Positions 32,901 to 38,900 of a DNA stretch of 64,000 nucleotides are shown here, in pieces. The position numbers are program-made. Source of the stretch: Gammaproteobacteria bacterium (lineage in GTDB: Bacteria; Pseudomonadota; Gammaproteobacteria; UBA4575). Positions within the stretch are counted from its first letter, which is position 1. Every line of letters begins with the position of its first letter. The stretch lies in assembly GCA_965223115.1 (NCBI GenBank), contig OZ244982.1:601128-665127 (forward strand), read 5' to 3'.

Positions 32901-35900
32901 ATAATTTAAATAAAAGCTTAAAAACCCGGTATGTAACAATTACATACCGGGTTTTTTTTATTTTGTTTATAAGAAAATACTTATCGGGCAGGGTGTAATT
33001 ATTTAAACTATAATCTGTTTAACAACATAAATATTAAATTCTACTAGAGGTTTTTTATGGCGCATAAACCCTATGAGCATGTCCAGATTCCTGCGGATGC
33101 GGAACCCATTCAGCTTAATCAGGATAACACCCTGCAGGTTCCTAATAATCCAATTATTCCTTTTATAGAAGGTGATGGGATTGGTATCGATGTTACGCCG
33201 GTTATGCGCAGAGTAGTTACAGCTGCAGTTAAATTGGCTTATAACGATGAACGCCGTATTCGCTGGATGGAGATTTTTGCTGGTGAAAAGGCCTCTCGTT
33301 TATATGGGACGACTGAATTTCTTCCTGAAGAAACACTTGATGTCATGCGTAAATACATTGTGTCAATCAAGGGTCCGCTTGCCACACCTGTAGGCGAAGG
33401 CATGCGTTCATTGAATGTTGCAATTCGACAAGTGTTGGATCTTTATGCATGTGTACGTCCAATTCGATATTTTTCAGGCACACCCACACCGCTTAAGGAT
33501 TCAGGTACAACCGATATGGTGATATTTAGGGAAAATACTGAAGACATTTATGCAGGAATAGAATGGGAAGCGCAAAGTAAGGAAGTTAAAAAAGTTATCA
33601 AGTTCTTACGTGAAGAAATGGGTGTTACAAAAATCCGTTTCCCTGAAACTTCCGGAATAGGTATTAAACCTGTTTCTAAAGAAGGTTCGGTACGTTTAAT
33701 TCGTAAAGCAATTCAATATGCTTTAGACAATAATCGTAATTCCGTTTCTTTGGTGCACAAAGGAAATATTATGAAATTTACTGAAGGTGCGTTTAGAAAT
33801 TGGGGCTACGATTTAGCTTTACATGAATTTAATGCTGAAGTCATTGGTGAAGGCCCATGGTGTAAAATTAAAAATCCTAATAATGGGAATGATGTCATTA
33901 TTAAAGATGTAATCGCAGATAATTTTTTACAACAAATTCTATTGAAGCCCGAAGATTACGATGTCATAGCTACACTGAATTTGAATGGCGATTACATTTC
34001 TGATGCGTTAGCTGCGCAAGTTGGTGGAATTGGTATAGCTCCGGGTGGAAATATTTCTGATAGTGTAGCTGTATTTGAAGCAACACATGGTACTGCTCCC
34101 GGTTTTGCGGGTAAAAATCGTGTTAACCCTGGTTCAATAATTTTATCTGCTGAAATGATGTTACGTTATATAGGCTGGGATGAAGCGGCTAACCTGATTG
34201 AAAAAGGTGTGTCGGGTGCAATTGCAGCAAGAACGGTAACTTATGACTTGGCACGTGCTCGTGCAGGCTTTAGTGCAGTAAAAGGCCGGCGTCCTGGGAC
34301 ATCAAGAGAAGTGCAAGAAGATTTAGAACGACTCATGCCAGGTGCAACACTTGTGAGCACGACTGGATTTGGTGAAGAAATTATAAAAAATATGTCTATG
34401 TAATGAATTACATATTTTAAAATTGAATAAGCATATTGCTTTATAGCACTTTTCCATTATATTCCACACAGTACCACAATAAATTGATTGTCAAATATAA
34501 GTAGTTGCTCATTCAAATAATAGTCTAAGCTAATTTTACTAGATTGTAGTTCATTAGAAGGAAAATAATGAGAATTGCCATTCTTGAGGATGATGTTGAT
34601 CAAGCTAGGCTTGTTGAAATATGGTTATCTGATGCTGGACATAATTGCTATGTCTACCACTCTGGTAGCCAAATTGTTCAATCCCTAAACAATGAGAGCT
34701 TCGATGTTATATTGCTTGATTGGGAAGTGCCTGACATGAGTGGGTTCGAAGTGTTGCAGTGGGTGCGCGAAAATCTAGACTGGTATGTACCTGTTCTATT
34801 CATCACGCAACGTGATCAGGAAGAAGACGTGGTAAAGGCGTTGCAAGCAGGTGCAGATGATTATATGGCTAAACCAATTAAACGTGCTGAAATGCTTGCA
34901 CGTATTGGCGCGGTATCAAGAAGAAATAATCCCCAAGATGAAGGTGAAACGATATTGGATTTTTCGCCTTACTCATTGGATTTAAAGAAAAGAACGGTAA
35001 GTTGTAATAATACAGAAATTGAGTTAACTCAAAAAGAATATGATCTAGCTTTGTTTATATTTCGAAATATAGGCAGAGTCTTGTCAAGAGGTTATATTCT
35101 TGAAAGGGTGTGGGGTAAGAATCCTGAAATTAATACGCGTACAGTAGATACGCATATTAGTCGTTTAAGGCGCAAGCTAAACATATCTATTGAAAATGGA
35201 TGGAGACTTACCTCTGTCTATCAACATGGATATCGCTTAGAACCTGCGACTGAATAAAGCGCTTGAGTTGTATTAGACACTTAAACCTATACGCACTCTG
35301 ATGATTACTTTTATTATTCATTAAGTATGTTTTTGTATGGATGTAATTAATAAAAAAATTTGTATGGTTGGAGATTTTTCTGTTGGCAAAACAAGTCTCG
35401 TGGCACGCTTTGTAAAAAATATTTTTTCTGAAAAATATCTTAGTACAGTAGGAGTTAAAATAGATTCTAAAGAAATTATTATAAATGATATGACCACATT
35501 AAAACTGTTAATTTGGGATATTGCAGGTAAGGATAAACTAAGCAGTTTAGATGATAATTATATTAGGGGCTGTGCAGGTTATTTGCTAATAGCAGATGGA
35601 ACACGCAAACATACTTTAGAATCTGCATACAAATTACAAGCGCATTTGCAAAACGAGCTGGGAGATATACCTTTTTGTATGCTCATTAATAAAAACGATT
35701 TGAAGAATCAATGGGAATGCAATGATGTAGAGATTAATAATATAAAAAATAATAAATGGTCTTATTTTGAAACAAGCGCAAAAAATGGTGAGAATGTTGA
35801 AGTAGCATTTAATGAGCTTGCAAAAAAAATACTTTCATGAAGCAACATACTGAAAAAATTGCGCAAAACTTATATGCGATATCTGCTGAGAAGATGAAGC

Positions 35901-38900
35901 CACTTGTGGTGGTAGTAGATGATGAGAATAACTATATTTCTCATTATGGAAATTTAAGCAATTATGATTTTAATCATTTCGTTCCAGGGCATAGCTGCAT
36001 TAAAGAACTTCCTTTTCTAGTTGGATTGGAAAAAGAGTCATACGTGGTTTTGCCACTTGTAAGTTTTAGTGAAAATATCGTAGCTAGTGTAAATGTTATA
36101 CAAATAAATCGAAATCGTTACGTAGTTCTTTTAGATGCTAAAGATGAGCACCAAAGACATCAGAAAACTACACAAGTGTCTAATGAGGCTAAGCTACTTA
36201 ATGTAAAATTAAGACAAATAACTGAGCAGTTGAAGGAGACGCAGTTAGAACTGGAGCATAAAAACAAGAAACTTGAATTAGCCAATACTGCCAAATCTCG
36301 TTTTATATCCAGTATGTCACATGAGTTTAGAACACCTATCTCATCAATATTAGGCTATGCAGACATTCTCGCTAGCAAGTTTTCAGACAGTGATGATGAA
36401 TATCGATATACAAAAGCCATAGAAAGAAATACTAAATATTTGCTATCGCTGATAGATAACGTTTTAGAACATGCGCAGTTAGAAACAGAAAAATTAACTC
36501 TAAATATAGCGCCATTCCAGGTAGCGGAACTGCTTAATGATATAAACTTAATGTTTTCTACTTTAGCCAAAGAATCTAATCTTATATTTAACTTTGACAT
36601 AAGTAATAATGTGCCAGAAGTATTACAAACAGACCGCATTAGATTGCAACAAATATTAATTAATATTATAGGTAATGCTATTAAATATACTGAAGTAGGA
36701 TCGGTCAGTGTTGAAGTAAATTGGAAAAATAATAATCTAATTATTATTGTTTCAGATACAGGTCCGGGAATTTTTGAAGAACATCGGGACAATATATTTC
36801 AAGCATTTAATCGCATACATTCTGAAAATAAAAAAGGTGCTGGTTTAGGGCTTTCTATCAGTAAACAATTGGCTGAGAAGTTAGGAGGAGAGCTTAAATT
36901 GCATTCTGAGGTTGGTTCAGGTTCAGTTTTTACTTTGACTATTTATGCAAACCAAGTAGATGCAATATCTTTAGCAAAAATCAAAGAGCATTCAAGTAAA
37001 AATGAAGCTAAAGTTTTAATTGTTGAAGATGATGAGGACTTGGTTGAATTGTTAAAAATATTTTTACATGAGTTTGGATATTCTACTTCAGTGGCCTATG
37101 ATGGGGATGAAGCAATAAAGAAGTGTAATGAAGAAAAGTTCGATCTGGTGTTGTTAGATATGCAGCTACCGAAATTAAATGGAACTGACGTACTAAAAAT
37201 ATTAGTAGAAAAAGATATAAAGATCCCTACTATTGGTATGACAGCGTCAACAAATAATGAAGATAAGAATAATGCGCTTAAAGCAGGTTGTAATGAATTT
37301 TTGATAAAGCCTATACAGGTTGCACCTTTAATAAGTACTATAAATAAATTACTTTTAAATGATGTCTAATCTGTCATCCGATGCTCAGCAAAAAATAACT
37401 AAGTTAAAAAAGTCTTATATTGCATCATTGCCTGATAAGTTGAAAACTTTAGAGAATGACTGGGTGAACATCGTGAATCAATCATTCAAACTTTCAGATA
37501 TAGAGTCACTTCGTACCATAAGCCATAAATTAGCAGGATCTGCAGGTTCTTATGAATTAATAGAAATATCAAAGTCTGCTAGAGCTGTTGAAAAGGCATG
37601 TAATGAATATTTGCAGTCTAAGACAAATGAAAAAAATGGCATAAAAAATTTGACTGCAAGCTATAAAAATTTAATTAACGTAATACATAAATCAATTGAT
37701 AATTATTTAATTAAATAGTTAATTAAATTAATTATCCTTTACAAAAAAGTTTCTCATTAGCAATATAAAATAACTGTTTAAGCTTCATTGATTAAAACTG
37801 TTAACTATATTTTACAAATGTCTTTATCAGATATAACAGTATAAATGTTATATTTATAAACTATAAGAAAATAAAATTTTAATTCTTTTGGAGACAAACG
37901 ATTATGAAACGAATTAGCATGCTTCTTGCAGCTTTAATTGCTGTTATGTATTTAGCAGGTTGCCAGACTACAAATCAAACTGCTGAATCTATTGAAATGG
38001 AAAATAATGCTGAGATGGCGGCATCTGAAGCGGAACTGATGGAGCGTGAACGTGAGCTTAATATGCGTGAACATGAGCTCGCTAAAAAAGAAAAAATGAT
38101 GTCTATGGAAGATGGGTCTACGGCATCGGCTCCTGTTATTGCGGCTTCGGGAGACTTATATCCACCAAATGCACGTCCAGGTGAATGTTATGCACGCATG
38201 CTTGTTCCTGCACAGCATCGCACAGTGACAAAAAAAGTACTTAAGAAAGAGGCTTCTGAACGTGTACAGATCATCCCTGCTACATATAAGACAGTTACAA
38301 AACGTGTATTAGTAAAACCTGAAACAACTAAATTAGTTGAAGTGCCGGCAAAATATGCTACTAAAACTGAACGAATCCAAGTTTCACCAGCACGTACGGT
38401 ATGGAAAAAAGGGGCAGGAATAGATGCCGCAAGTGCAGGGGCAGGTGCAGCAGGCGGGGATAGTGCCGCAGCTATTATTGACCGCTTTGGTAACCAGAAG
38501 GTTGTTGGTACTCGAGTCACAGATACAGGTGAAGTTATGTGTTTAGTAGAAATACCAGCTCAATATAAAACGGTTAGCAAAACAGTTTTAGTAAGCCCTG
38601 CAACAACAAAGAAAGTTACGATTCCTGCTGAATATAAAACAGTTCAAGTTACAGAGCTTGTTACTGCCGCACAGGAAAAGAGAATCAAGATTCCAGAAGA
38701 ATATGGAACCGTAACACGCACAGAACTAGTACAAGCAGAACAACTTACATGGGTGCCGGTATTGTGTCAGGTTAATATGACAAGCCGAAATGTTTCACAA
38801 TTACAAGGCGCACTTAAGAGACAAGGTTGTTATTCGTGTGAAGTAGATGGAATTATGGGTCCTTGTACTTTTCGGGGTGCGCAGTGTTACGCTAAGCGCA

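What the first reader, a model, noticed from the sequence alone, without database searches (positions are those of the whole stretch)
34568..37718. Ras-like small GTPase inside a response-regulator / hybrid-kinase / Hpt operon
A 167-aa GTPase with complete G1-G5 motifs, but Lys at the catalytic Gln61 position (WDIAGKD), sits between an OmpR-type regulator and a hybrid kinase. The kinase has a ~150-residue N-terminal domain of unassigned function that could be an MglB/roadblock-like GTPase partner. A stand-alone Hpt gene follows. Prokaryotic Ras-superfamily GTPases coupled to phosphorelays are sparsely characterised.
Basis: partly seen in the sequence, partly recalled or inferred. Interest (0 to 1): 0.55.

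Follow-up and report, generated by a model that had tools for sequence, protein, structure and literature searches.

The report
Ras-like GTPase gating a histidine-kinase phosphorelay
A bacterial Ras/Rab-like GTPase that lacks its own catalytic glutamine is encoded next to a soluble sensor kinase whose only sensor domain always travels with this GTPase family, so the GTPase is probably the kinase's input; this kind of system was predicted from genomes in 2014 but has not been tested, and this copy is an unusually stripped-down version.

Summary
Four same-strand genes encode an OmpR-type regulator, a 167-aa Ras/Rab-like GTPase, a soluble hybrid histidine kinase and a stand-alone Hpt protein. The GTPase has intact G1-G5 motifs, with Lys65 at the Ras-Gln61 position and Phe14 at the Ras-Gly12 position.

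The GTPase belongs to the "Group 1 Rup" family of Wuichet & Søgaard-Andersen (2014). That paper had already noted the missing G3 glutamine. It also noted partner kinases or cyclases with an N-terminal region carrying an invariant Gln, proposed to act in trans.

The kinase N-domain here is that region. It matches no Pfam family or PDB sequence, and Gly63 and Gln113 are invariant. AlphaFold2 (pLDDT 87) gives a PAS/GAF-like α/β fold followed by a long helix. It is not specifically roadblock-like.

In 78 of 79 assessable related loci, this domain or a remote paralogue found here ("type B") is encoded next to the GTPase. It is fused to kinases, cyclases, PP2C phosphatases, HD domains or a σ54 activator, as an input module would be.

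The window's clade is a reduced variant. The usual upstream coiled-coil and OmpA-domain genes are absent, and a full His-Asp-His-Asp relay is attached.

Verdict: a new variant of a known, experimentally untested kind. Interest is moderate.

The parts
34568..35257 (+). OmpR/PhoB-type response regulator (229 aa). The receiver has D8/D9, phospho-acceptor D51, T80 and K102, followed by a winged-helix DNA-binding domain. It is the presumed final output of the relay.
   Evidence: Pfam Response_reg E=1.9e-24 and Trans_reg_C E=6.9e-21. It scores below the cut-off of every named NCBIfam equivalog.
35337..35840 (+). Group-1 Rup-type Ras/Rab-like small GTPase (167 aa). G1 is 12-19 (GDFSVGKT, with F14 at the Ras G12 position), G2 is T37, G3 is D61-G64 with K65 at the Ras Q61 position (codon 35529-35531), G4 is 118-121 and G5 is 147-149. 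There is no lipidation tail and no TM segment.
   Evidence: Pfam Ras E=1.4e-34. Best PDB relatives are Rabs. It is 50-54% identical to Nostoc and Methylococcales proteins that sit in canonical Group-1 Rup neighbourhoods.
35837..36139 (+). Kinase residues 1-101: the 'type A' Rup-associated input domain. The predicted fold is PAS/GAF-like α/β (α1, β1-β2, a short helix and loop, β3-β5). G63 is invariant, F60-L61-x-G63-L64 is conserved, and the domain ends in an L-D-A-(T) motif.
   Evidence: No Pfam or PDB sequence hit. AlphaFold2 gives pLDDT 87.4 and pTM 0.72.
36140..36286 (+). Kinase residues 102-150: a long helix joining the type A domain to the DHp domain. It carries the family-invariant Gln113 (codon 36173-36175) within the conserved Q-x-x-N116-E117-x-x-L120 patch. 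These residues sit on the outward-facing heptad positions (c, f, g, c).
   Evidence: Q113 is invariant, and is Q in 64 of 65 type A domains. The heptad analysis is and the translation check. It corresponds to the 'invariant glutamine' of PMC4316618.
36290..36943 (+). Histidine-kinase core: HisKA/DHp with phospho-acceptor His162, and HATPase_c with the N-box (N280), G1 (D307-G311), F-box (F321) and G2 (G334-G338).
   Evidence: Pfam HisKA E=5.2e-16 and HATPase_c E=7.5e-27.
37013..37342 (+). C-terminal receiver domain of the hybrid kinase, with phospho-acceptor Asp441, T469 and K491.
   Evidence: Pfam Response_reg E=8.7e-27.
37359..37718 (+). Stand-alone histidine phosphotransfer (Hpt) protein (119 aa) with His56 in the HKLAGS motif. 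Its start overlaps the kinase stop by 11 bp.
   Evidence: Pfam Hpt E=6.7e-8. A small Hpt ORF lies at the same place in relatives.

Best explanation
This is a reduced, fully cytoplasmic version of the 'Group 1 Rup' GTPase signalling module, wired into a four-step phosphorelay.

The Rup GTPase binds guanine nucleotide, since G1-G5 are intact. It cannot hydrolyse GTP efficiently on its own, because it has Lys instead of the catalytic Gln and a bulky Phe at the Ras Gly12 position.

Its nucleotide state is read by the PAS-like 'type A' domain at the N-terminus of the soluble hybrid histidine kinase. This is the kinase's only candidate sensor domain. Binding is transmitted through the helix that joins this domain to the DHp domain, and it switches autophosphorylation at His162.

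The phosphoryl group then passes to Asp441 of the kinase receiver, to His56 of the Hpt protein, and to Asp51 of the OmpR-type regulator, which changes transcription.

The invariant, outward-facing Gln113-Asn116-Glu117 patch on the linker helix is the likely contact site for the GTPase. It may also supply the missing catalytic Gln in trans. The kinase would then act as effector and GAP at once, and the signal would time itself out.

What is shown: domain content, catalytic residues, the family-wide linkage of the GTPase with the A/B domain, the promiscuous fusion of that domain to many output types, and the predicted fold.

What is inferred: physical binding, the direction of signalling (GTPase to kinase), GAP activity of Gln113, and the regulon.

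In most relatives an upstream coiled-coil protein and a membrane protein with a peptidoglycan-binding OmpA domain presumably load or position the GTPase. Both genes are absent from this locus. The input here is therefore unknown; it may be spontaneous exchange that tracks the guanine-nucleotide pool, or a factor encoded elsewhere.
For: (1) Family assignment. The G3 position equivalent to Ras Q61 is E, K, N, T, R, A, D, S or V in 86 of 87 family members and Q in only one. Phe at the Ras-G12 position is nearly invariant. This matches the published Group 1 Rup description.

(2) Linkage.
- The type A domain lies immediately downstream of the GTPase in 65 of 87 loci, often with overlapping stop and start codons.
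- Thirteen more loci carry a type B domain instead. hhalign of A against B gives probability 87.7% and E=3.4e-6, with the invariant Gln aligned.
- Eight of the nine remaining loci are truncated within about 1.1 kb downstream.
- The reciprocal check gave 3 of 3.

(3) Input-module behaviour. Across 74 A/B-domain proteins the C-terminal partners are HATPase_c (51), HisKA (30), REC (24), adenylate/guanylate cyclase (11), SpoIIE/PP2C (6), HD (2) and a σ54 activator (1). In cyanobacteria type A is a free-standing protein of about 130 aa between the GTPase and a type-B kinase.

(4) Fold. The confident AlphaFold2 model has PAS-like topology ending in a long helix, and its best PDB neighbours are PAS/GAF sensor domains. 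The L-D-A-T motif at the β5/helix junction (D in 56 of 61 sequences) resembles the PAS D-I/V-T hinge motif; that comparison rests on my own knowledge.

(5) Gln113 and its neighbours lie on non-core heptad positions. The core a/d positions are 111, 118, 121, 125, 128, 132, 139 and 146, whereas Q113 is c, N116 is f, E117 is g and L120 is c. The motif is also kept in free-standing A proteins that have no downstream output domain.

(6) All four proteins lack TM segments. The highest 19-residue Kyte-Doolittle window (1.68, starting at kinase residue 70) falls in the confidently modelled β3-β4 strands.

(7) All phospho-acceptor and ATP-binding motifs are present.
Against: - No direct evidence of binding was obtained.
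- The conserved Gln patch could instead pack against the PAS-like core, or serve helix signalling, rather than touch the GTPase.
- In the window's clade the residues around Gln113 (T-T-Q-V-S-N-E) differ from the family consensus (Q-Q-K-A-N-E).
- An apparent charge complementarity between the G3 residue and the residue after the Gln has counter-examples (L030, L080) and amounts to about one evolutionary event.
- The direction of signalling is not established. For actinobacterial conservons the GTPase was proposed as the output.
- The Foldseek matches are weak (E about 3e-3, TM about 0.5), so 'PAS-like' describes a fold class and does not demonstrate homology.
- The upstream partner genes could exist elsewhere in the genome, outside the 64-kb window.
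Confidence: 0.62

Rival explanations
1. Reverse wiring. The kinase's type A domain regulates the GTPase as a GAP, GEF or GDI, and the GTPase is the real output acting on unknown effectors. This is what has been proposed for actinobacterial conservons. The phosphorelay would then be a parallel or feedback branch.
For: The conservon precedent, where the GTPase is posited as the output. The invariant Gln is compatible with a purely GAP role. In cyanobacteria a free-standing type A protein exists with no output domain.
Against: The A/B domain is N-terminally fused to at least six unrelated output classes. This is the signature of an input domain feeding those outputs. In this locus the kinase has no other sensor domain, and a complete relay ending in a DNA-binding regulator is present. 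No candidate GTPase effector is conserved nearby in the window's clade.
Confidence: 0.2
2. The GTPase is a constitutively GTP-bound pseudo-switch. It acts as a structural subunit that is simply needed for kinase folding, dimerisation or localisation, with no regulated nucleotide cycle.
For: Both residues that normally allow fast hydrolysis are replaced (F14 at the G12 position, K65 at the Q61 position), and the Q61 position is variable across the family. The putative upstream activators are missing in this clade.
Against: G1-G5, the switch I Thr37 and the surrounding switch I/interswitch residues are invariant or nearly so across phyla. That implies selection on nucleotide-dependent conformations. 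An invariant Gln in the partner is most simply explained by catalysis in trans, as RapGAP and TBC GAPs supply catalytic residues (own knowledge; the point is also made).
Confidence: 0.1
3. Coincidental neighbours. A horizontally acquired eukaryote-like Rab landed inside an ordinary TorS/ArcB-type phosphorelay operon, and the kinase N-domain is a conventional small-molecule PAS sensor.
For: The best solved relatives of the GTPase are eukaryotic and Asgard Rabs. The kinase N-domain has a PAS-like predicted fold. G+C is low (0.30) in the window segment 36001-38000, which covers the 3' part of the kinase gene and the Hpt gene, against about 0.37 for the window.
Against: At least 596 bacterial species genomes across many phyla encode close relatives. 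The GTPase and A/B-domain pairing holds in 78 of 79 assessable loci, often with overlapping coding sequences. Gene order is conserved down to 52% GTPase identity.
Confidence: 0.03

Closest known systems
Group 1 Rup GTPase systems (Wuichet & Søgaard-Andersen 2014, Genome Biol Evol, PMC4316618). These were defined computationally; no experimental study was found in the held library.
   Same: The GTPase is Ras-like, has eukaryote-type G1-G5 motifs and lacks the G3 glutamine. The gene immediately downstream encodes a signalling protein whose N-terminal region has an invariant Gln. Homologues at 50-54% identity sit in the canonical four-gene neighbourhoods in Nostoc and Methylococcales.
   Different: Two of the four hallmark genes, the coiled-coil protein and the Unc-TM-OmpA membrane protein, are absent from the locus and from the whole 64-kb window. 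Instead an OmpR-type regulator sits directly upstream, and the kinase is a hybrid followed by an Hpt protein. The G3 residue is Lys rather than the usual Glu. Intermediate loci with the order regulator, coiled-coil, OmpA, Rup, hybrid kinase, Hpt exist in other Gammaproteobacteria (L014, L030; similar in L022, L082).
Actinobacterial conservons (CvnA-D / Mfp systems)
   Same: A small Ras-superfamily GTPase is encoded with a histidine-kinase-type protein, and the two are thought to form one signalling complex.
   Different: Conservons use an MglA-family GTPase, a roadblock/LC7 protein (CvnB), a DUF742 protein (CvnC) and a membrane HAMP kinase, and they have no response regulator. Here there is no roadblock protein and no DUF742. 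The GTPase is Rup/Rab-like with a canonical DxxG motif, the kinase is soluble, and a full relay with a regulator is present.
MglA/MglB polarity switch of Myxococcus
   Same: A bacterial Ras-like GTPase interfaces with two-component-type proteins, and a dedicated partner protein completes the active site.
   Different: MglB is a roadblock-fold GAP. [quoted passage not shown] No roadblock signal was detected in this locus. The partner domain here is PAS-like and fused to a kinase.
Rap1-Rap1GAP and Rab-TBC GAP pairs (eukaryotes)
   Same: The GTPase lacks or does not use its own Gln61, and the partner supplies a catalytic Asn or Gln in trans. This is the mechanistic analogy for Gln113 (own knowledge; also invoked).
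   Different: There is no sequence or fold relationship between the type A domain and RapGAP or TBC domains. Catalysis in trans is untested here. The Phe at the G12 position would also exclude an arginine finger.
ArcB/TorS/BarA-type hybrid-kinase phosphorelays
   Same: The same His-Asp-His-Asp chemistry. The best NCBIfam similarities of the kinase core are TorS, ArcB and BarA.
   Different: All those scores are far below the equivalog cut-offs. The Hpt is a separate protein. The kinase has no membrane or periplasmic sensor, and the sensor domain is the Rup-linked type A domain.

Membership tests
Ras superfamily small GTPase | G1 GxxxxGK[ST], G2 Thr, G3 DxxG, G4 NKxD and G5 SAK, in a single domain of about 170 aa | tested here: met
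   All five motifs are read directly from the sequence. Pfam Ras E=1.4e-34 over residues 7-166. TIGR00231 small_GTP scores above its cut-off.
Group 1 Rup (PMC4316618) | Rup-type (eukaryote-like) G motifs, but no Gln after DxxG in G3 | tested here: met
   The G3 sequence is WDIAGK65D. 86 of 87 family members lack Gln at this position.
Group 1 Rup (PMC4316618) | An adjacent signalling protein (kinase or cyclase type) whose N-terminal region has an invariant Gln | tested here: met
   The kinase gene overlaps the GTPase stop codon. Gln113 is invariant, and is Q in 64 of 65 type A domains.
Group 1 Rup (PMC4316618) | A neighbouring cytoplasmic coiled-coil protein gene | tested here: not met
   Profile and tblastn searches find no homologue in the locus or anywhere in the 64-kb window. 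It is present in most other loci. The rest of the genome was not searchable.
Group 1 Rup (PMC4316618) | A neighbouring protein with an uncharacterised domain, a TM helix and a C-terminal OmpA peptidoglycan-binding domain | tested here: not met
   Absent from the locus and the window. It is also absent in the close relatives L001, L002, L003, L005 and L007.
Group 1 Rup (PMC4316618) | Phylogenetic placement inside the Group 1 clade | tested here: inconclusive
   No tree was built against the published set. The nearest non-clade homologues (50-54% identity) are Nostoc and Methylococcales proteins in canonical Group 1 neighbourhoods.
MglA family / MglB-regulated GTPase | A cognate roadblock/LC7 (MglB) partner | tested here: not met
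   No Robl_LC7 match for the kinase N-domain family, even at E<=10. Roadblock chains are only weak structural matches (TM 0.33). The GTPase scores best as Ras/Rab.
Actinobacterial conservon | A four-gene set: membrane HAMP kinase (CvnA), roadblock protein (CvnB), DUF742 protein (CvnC) and an MglA-type GTPase (CvnD); no response regulator | tested here: not met
   The kinase is soluble with no HAMP domain, there are no roadblock or DUF742 genes, and a regulator and an Hpt protein are present.
Roco / ROC-COR GTPases | A Roc GTPase domain fused to a COR domain (often with LRR) | tested here: not met
   This is a stand-alone 167-aa protein. The Pfam Roc hit (E=4e-25) is weaker than the Ras hit, and no COR domain is present.
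PAS domain (sensu Pfam clan) | A significant match to a PAS-clan sequence profile | tested here: not met
   No PAS family hit for 45 type A domains at E<=10. There is only fold-level resemblance. The description used is therefore 'PAS-like fold', not PAS-family member.
Hybrid histidine kinase phosphorelay (His-Asp-His-Asp) | H-box His, N/G1/F/G2 boxes, receiver Asp, Hpt His, and a terminal response regulator Asp | tested here: met
   His162; N280, D307-G311, F321 and G334-G338; Asp441; Hpt His56; regulator Asp51. Phosphotransfer itself cannot be tested with these tools.

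The most novel reading that the evidence does not exclude
The PAS-like type A domain is a previously unrecognised class of GTPase-activating and effector module. Gln113 sits on the outward face of the helix that drives the kinase's DHp domain. It would insert into the Rup active site, which lacks a Gln and excludes an arginine finger because of Phe14. GTP hydrolysis would then be mechanically coupled to the helix movement that switches the kinase, giving a self-timing, GTPase-gated histidine kinase.

In this reduced clade, with no membrane partners, the GTPase might act as a cytoplasmic gauge of the guanine-nucleotide pool. 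It could control genes such as the adjacent, syntenic aceA-icd glyoxylate branch-point pair.
Probability: 0.2. Interest if true: 0.8.

Novelty: new variant of a known kind. Interest (0 to 1): 0.5.

Why it matters
How bacterial Ras-like GTPases talk to two-component systems is essentially untested outside MglA and the conservons. The Group 1 Rup family is widespread: at least 596 species genomes in one scan, spanning Cyanobacteria, Proteobacteria, Acidobacteriota, Verrucomicrobiota, Firmicutes and Chloroflexi. I found no experimental paper on it.

This locus is the simplest form seen here. It has four small, soluble, co-oriented proteins, no membrane component, and a defined transcriptional output. 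That makes it a practical system for in-vitro reconstitution. Such work could test whether a small GTPase can be the ligand of a PAS-like sensor domain, and whether a catalytic Gln is delivered in trans from a kinase signalling helix.

- a confident PAS-like fold prediction for the partner domain;
- recognition of two remote paralogous forms (A and B), which coexist in cyanobacterial loci;
- a much wider range of fused outputs (cyclases, PP2C phosphatases, HD domains, a σ54 activator).

Tried and rejected
- The word-indexed homology search with kinase residues 1-150 returned only three truncated proteins. The exhaustive phmmer search against representatives returned only 12 hits, several of them spurious repeats. 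The domain family had to be built up from GTPase-anchored loci instead.
No complex model exists, and the second structure job went unused.
- Co-variation between the GTPase G3 residue and the residue following the invariant Gln was examined. Glu with Lys is common, and the Lys-clade has Val, Ala, Asp or Gly at that position. The result was judged inconclusive because of counter-examples and phylogenetic non-independence.
- Footprinting of the intergenic regions upstream of the regulator gene and of the downstream lipoprotein gene showed only a promoter-like TTTACA...TATATT pattern. No convincing regulator-binding repeat emerged, and no intrinsic terminator lies inside the operon.
- The organism name could not be recovered. 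The proteins are singletons from an unnamed 2.67-Mb NCBI/ENA contig. Relatives are uncultured Gammaproteobacteria.
- Roadblock/MglB homology, conservon membership and a Legionella-style eukaryotic Rab acquisition were considered and rejected.

Full report
OBSERVATION

- 34568-35257 encodes a 229-aa OmpR/PhoB-type response regulator (Pfam Response_reg E=1.9e-24, Trans_reg_C E=6.9e-21).
- 35337-35840 encodes a 167-aa small GTPase (Pfam Ras E=1.4e-34).
- 35837-37369 encodes a 510-aa hybrid histidine kinase. HisKA covers residues 152-217, HATPase_c 266-369 and the receiver 393-502. Residues 1-150 have no Pfam hit.
- 37359-37718 encodes a 119-aa Hpt protein (E=6.7e-8).

The GTPase and kinase genes overlap by 4 bp and the kinase and Hpt genes by 11 bp. 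The regulator gene ends 79 bp upstream of the GTPase gene.

The GTPase has G1 GDFSVGKT (12-19), G2 Thr37, G3 DIAG (61-64), G4 NKND (118-121) and G5 SAK (147-149). In the HMMER alignment to Rab11, Lys65 lies opposite the catalytic Gln of DTAGQE. By P-loop register, Phe14 occupies the Ras Gly12 position.

All phosphorelay residues are present: kinase His162, the N/G1/F/G2 boxes, receiver Asp441, Hpt His56 and regulator Asp51. None of the four proteins has a transmembrane segment. The single hydrophobic maximum falls in confidently modelled β-strands.

The lysine is residue 65.

PRIOR KNOWLEDGE

Wuichet & Søgaard-Andersen (2014, PMC4316618) split prokaryotic Ras-superfamily GTPases into the MglA and Rup families. 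They defined 'Group 1 Rup' proteins as lacking the G3 glutamine. These proteins sit in a conserved four-gene neighbourhood:
- a cytoplasmic coiled-coil protein;
- a protein with an unknown domain, a TM helix and an OmpA peptidoglycan-binding domain;
- the Rup GTPase;
- an output protein (GGDEF/EAL or histidine kinase) whose N-terminal region carries an invariant Gln.

They speculated that this Gln is supplied in trans. I found no experimental follow-up in the held library.

FAMILY ASSIGNMENT OF THE GTPASE

Close relatives (60-70% identity) come from uncultured Gammaproteobacteria. At 50-55% identity the hits include Nostoc, Methylococcales, Blastocatellia and Desulfobacterales proteins that NCBI calls 'Rab family GTPase'.

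I analysed 87 loci (the window, L001-L006 and 80 from the scan).
- The Ras-Q61 position is Glu in 60, Lys in 9, Asn in 5, and Thr, Arg, Ala, Asp, Ser or Val in the rest. It is Gln only once.
- Phe at the Ras-G12 position is nearly invariant.
- Switch I and the interswitch region (Y34, T37, G39, V40, K41, D43, K45) are invariant.

The hydrolysis-relevant position is therefore free to vary, while the effector-facing surface is frozen. This is the pattern expected if catalysis is completed by a partner.

THE KINASE N-TERMINAL DOMAIN

It matches no Pfam family, even at E<=10 across 45 members, and no PDB sequence.

I aligned it with the proteins encoded downstream of Rup in Methylococcales and Nostoc, and with hits from the representative library. 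This gives a family of about 135 residues ('type A') with Gly63 and Gln113 invariant. An F-L-x-G-L motif and Q-x-x-N-E-x-x-L are also conserved.

AlphaFold2 on a 45-sequence alignment gave pLDDT 87.4 and pTM 0.72. The topology is α1, β1, β2, a short helix and loop, β3, β4, β5, and then a long helix from residue 102.

The best Foldseek matches in the PDB are PAS/GAF domains of bacteriophytochromes and PAS domains of sensor kinases (E about 3e-3, TM about 0.5). Roadblock chains appear only at ranks 26 and 50, with TM 0.33 and rmsd above 11 Å.

The fold is therefore PAS-like and not specifically roadblock-like.

The β5/helix junction carries L-D-A-T, with Asp in 56 of 61 sequences. From my own knowledge this resembles the D-I/V-T hinge of PAS-coiled-coil sensors.

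LINKAGE BETWEEN THE GTPASE AND THE DOMAIN

A type A domain is encoded immediately downstream of the GTPase in 65 of 87 loci. The gap typically runs from -8 to about +170 bp, and larger negative values are over-extended ORF calls.

Where type A was missing but sequence was available, the downstream protein began with a different conserved domain of about 145 residues carrying a Q-K-A-R-E motif. I call this 'type B'. It occurs in 31 loci.

hhalign relates A and B with probability 87.7% and E=3.4e-6. The F-L-E-G and F-L-E-N-F motifs align, as do the two glutamines.

Counting either type, 78 of 87 loci have the domain. Eight of the nine without are contigs that end within about 1.1 kb downstream. 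Only one locus (L008, Trueperaceae) truly lacks it.

As a reciprocal check, three proteins retrieved by the domain profile alone all have a Ras-family gene directly upstream.

In heterocystous cyanobacteria the order is Rup, a free-standing type A protein of about 130 aa, then a type-B kinase.

Across 74 A/B-containing proteins the fused partners are HATPase_c (51), HisKA (30), receiver (24), adenylate/guanylate cyclase (11), SpoIIE/PP2C (6), HD (2) and one σ54 activator.

An N-terminal module recombined with many output types, and always next to the same GTPase, behaves as an input domain whose 'ligand' is that GTPase.

ROLE OF GLN113

Anchoring 61 non-redundant type A sequences on the invariant Gln shows a clear heptad pattern in the following helix. 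The core positions are 111, 118, 121, 125, 128, 132, 139 and 146.

Gln113, Asn116, Glu117 and the always-hydrophobic residue 120 fall on c, f, g and c positions, which is the outward face. The motif is also retained in free-standing type A proteins that have no output domain to signal to.

This favours a protein-contact surface over a buried coiled-coil polar layer. It does not show that the contact is the GTPase active site. The patch could instead pack against the PAS-like body.

A possible charge pairing between the G3 residue and the residue after the Gln has counter-examples and is inconclusive.

WHAT IS SPECIAL ABOUT THIS LOCUS

In most loci the coiled-coil gene (about 200 aa) and the Unc-TM-OmpA gene (about 600 aa) lie directly upstream of rup.

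In the window and its close relatives (L001, L002, L003, L005, L007, L089) both are absent. All of these have Lys at G3. The OmpR-type regulator sits directly upstream, the kinase is a hybrid, and an Hpt gene follows.

Neither missing gene has a homologue anywhere in the 64-kb window.

Other Gammaproteobacteria show the likely ancestral layout of regulator, coiled-coil, OmpA, Rup, hybrid kinase, Hpt (L014, L030; similar in L022, L082). A Beggiatoa-like group (L024, L028, L064) also lacks the two upstream genes.

The four-gene form is found across phyla. The window's form is therefore best read as a derived, reduced variant, although relocation of the missing genes elsewhere in the genome cannot be excluded.

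The operon is flanked in all close relatives by isocitrate lyase and isocitrate dehydrogenase genes upstream and by a 354-aa lipoprotein gene downstream. Whether these are targets is unknown. Intergenic footprinting gave nothing convincing.

MECHANISM

Best-supported model (confidence about 0.6):
- Rup's nucleotide state is sensed by the type A domain.
- The linker helix transmits the signal to the DHp domain.
- The relay runs His162, Asp441, His56 (Hpt), Asp51 (regulator), and ends in transcription.

The sub-claim that Gln113 completes the GTPase active site in trans is plausible, at about 0.3. It is analogous to RapGAP's Asn and the TBC domain's Gln (own knowledge; also argued). It is untested.

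Rival explanations:
- reverse wiring with the GTPase as the output, about 0.2;
- a non-cycling structural GTPase, about 0.1;
- chance adjacency or a horizontally acquired Rab, effectively excluded.

VERDICT

The system belongs to a kind that is already described computationally but is experimentally uncharacterised. This copy is a new, minimal, all-soluble variant wired to a complete phosphorelay. Interest is 0.5.

Its main value is as a tractable model for testing GTPase-gated histidine-kinase signalling and catalysis in trans from a PAS-like domain.

Noticed in passing
window 40335-40696: A 123-bp unit is repeated 2.4 times at 99% identity (40335-40629). It runs into the single tRNA gene of the window, tRNA-Ser(GGA) at 40605-40696. 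The unit contains tRNA-like 5' sequence, so this may be a partial tandem duplication of the tRNA gene or an integration-site scar.
   Followed up: partly
window 31547-34403; L001, L002, L003, L005, L089: Isocitrate lyase (31547-32896) and isocitrate dehydrogenase (33057-34403) lie directly upstream on the same strand. This synteny with the regulator-GTPase-kinase-Hpt operon is kept in all close relatives examined. A regulatory link to the glyoxylate branch point is possible but untested.
   Followed up: partly
window 37904-38968: A conserved 354-aa predicted lipoprotein follows the Hpt gene in every close relative. It has a lipobox (LAGC), a coiled-coil stretch, K/T/V-rich repeats, and a C-terminal stretch that looks by eye like a PG_binding_1 motif. 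It has no Pfam hit at E<=0.1. A conserved TTTACA...TATATT promoter-like element lies upstream.
   Followed up: partly
L004, L009, L023, L027, L031, L041, L042, L045, L047-L049, L053, L078, L085, L088 (cyanobacteria): Cyanobacterial loci carry both forms of the partner domain in series. The order is Rup, a free-standing type A protein of about 130 aa, then a kinase of about 372 aa with an N-terminal type B domain. This suggests a division of labour, for example GAP versus effector, that is merged in the window's kinase.
   Followed up: partly
L008 8001-9203 (Trueperaceae MAG): This is the only assessable locus with the coiled-coil and OmpA genes and a Rup gene but no type A or type B domain downstream. 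The next ORF is an unassigned 230-aa protein.
   Followed up: no
L039 and L059 (Desulfomonile MAGs): The module is rearranged. A free-standing type A protein follows Rup, but the OmpA-domain gene, the coiled-coil gene and a type-B protein lie downstream on the opposite strand.
   Followed up: no
window 17537-22051: A 1504-aa ORF shows histidine-kinase-core similarity (tblastn hits at 18176-19456). It is a second, much larger kinase-type gene in the window, unrelated to the Rup module, and it has no type A or B domain.
   Followed up: no
window 36001-38000: G+C drops to 0.30 over the 3' part of the kinase gene, the Hpt gene and the following spacer, against about 0.37 for the window as a whole.
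   Followed up: no
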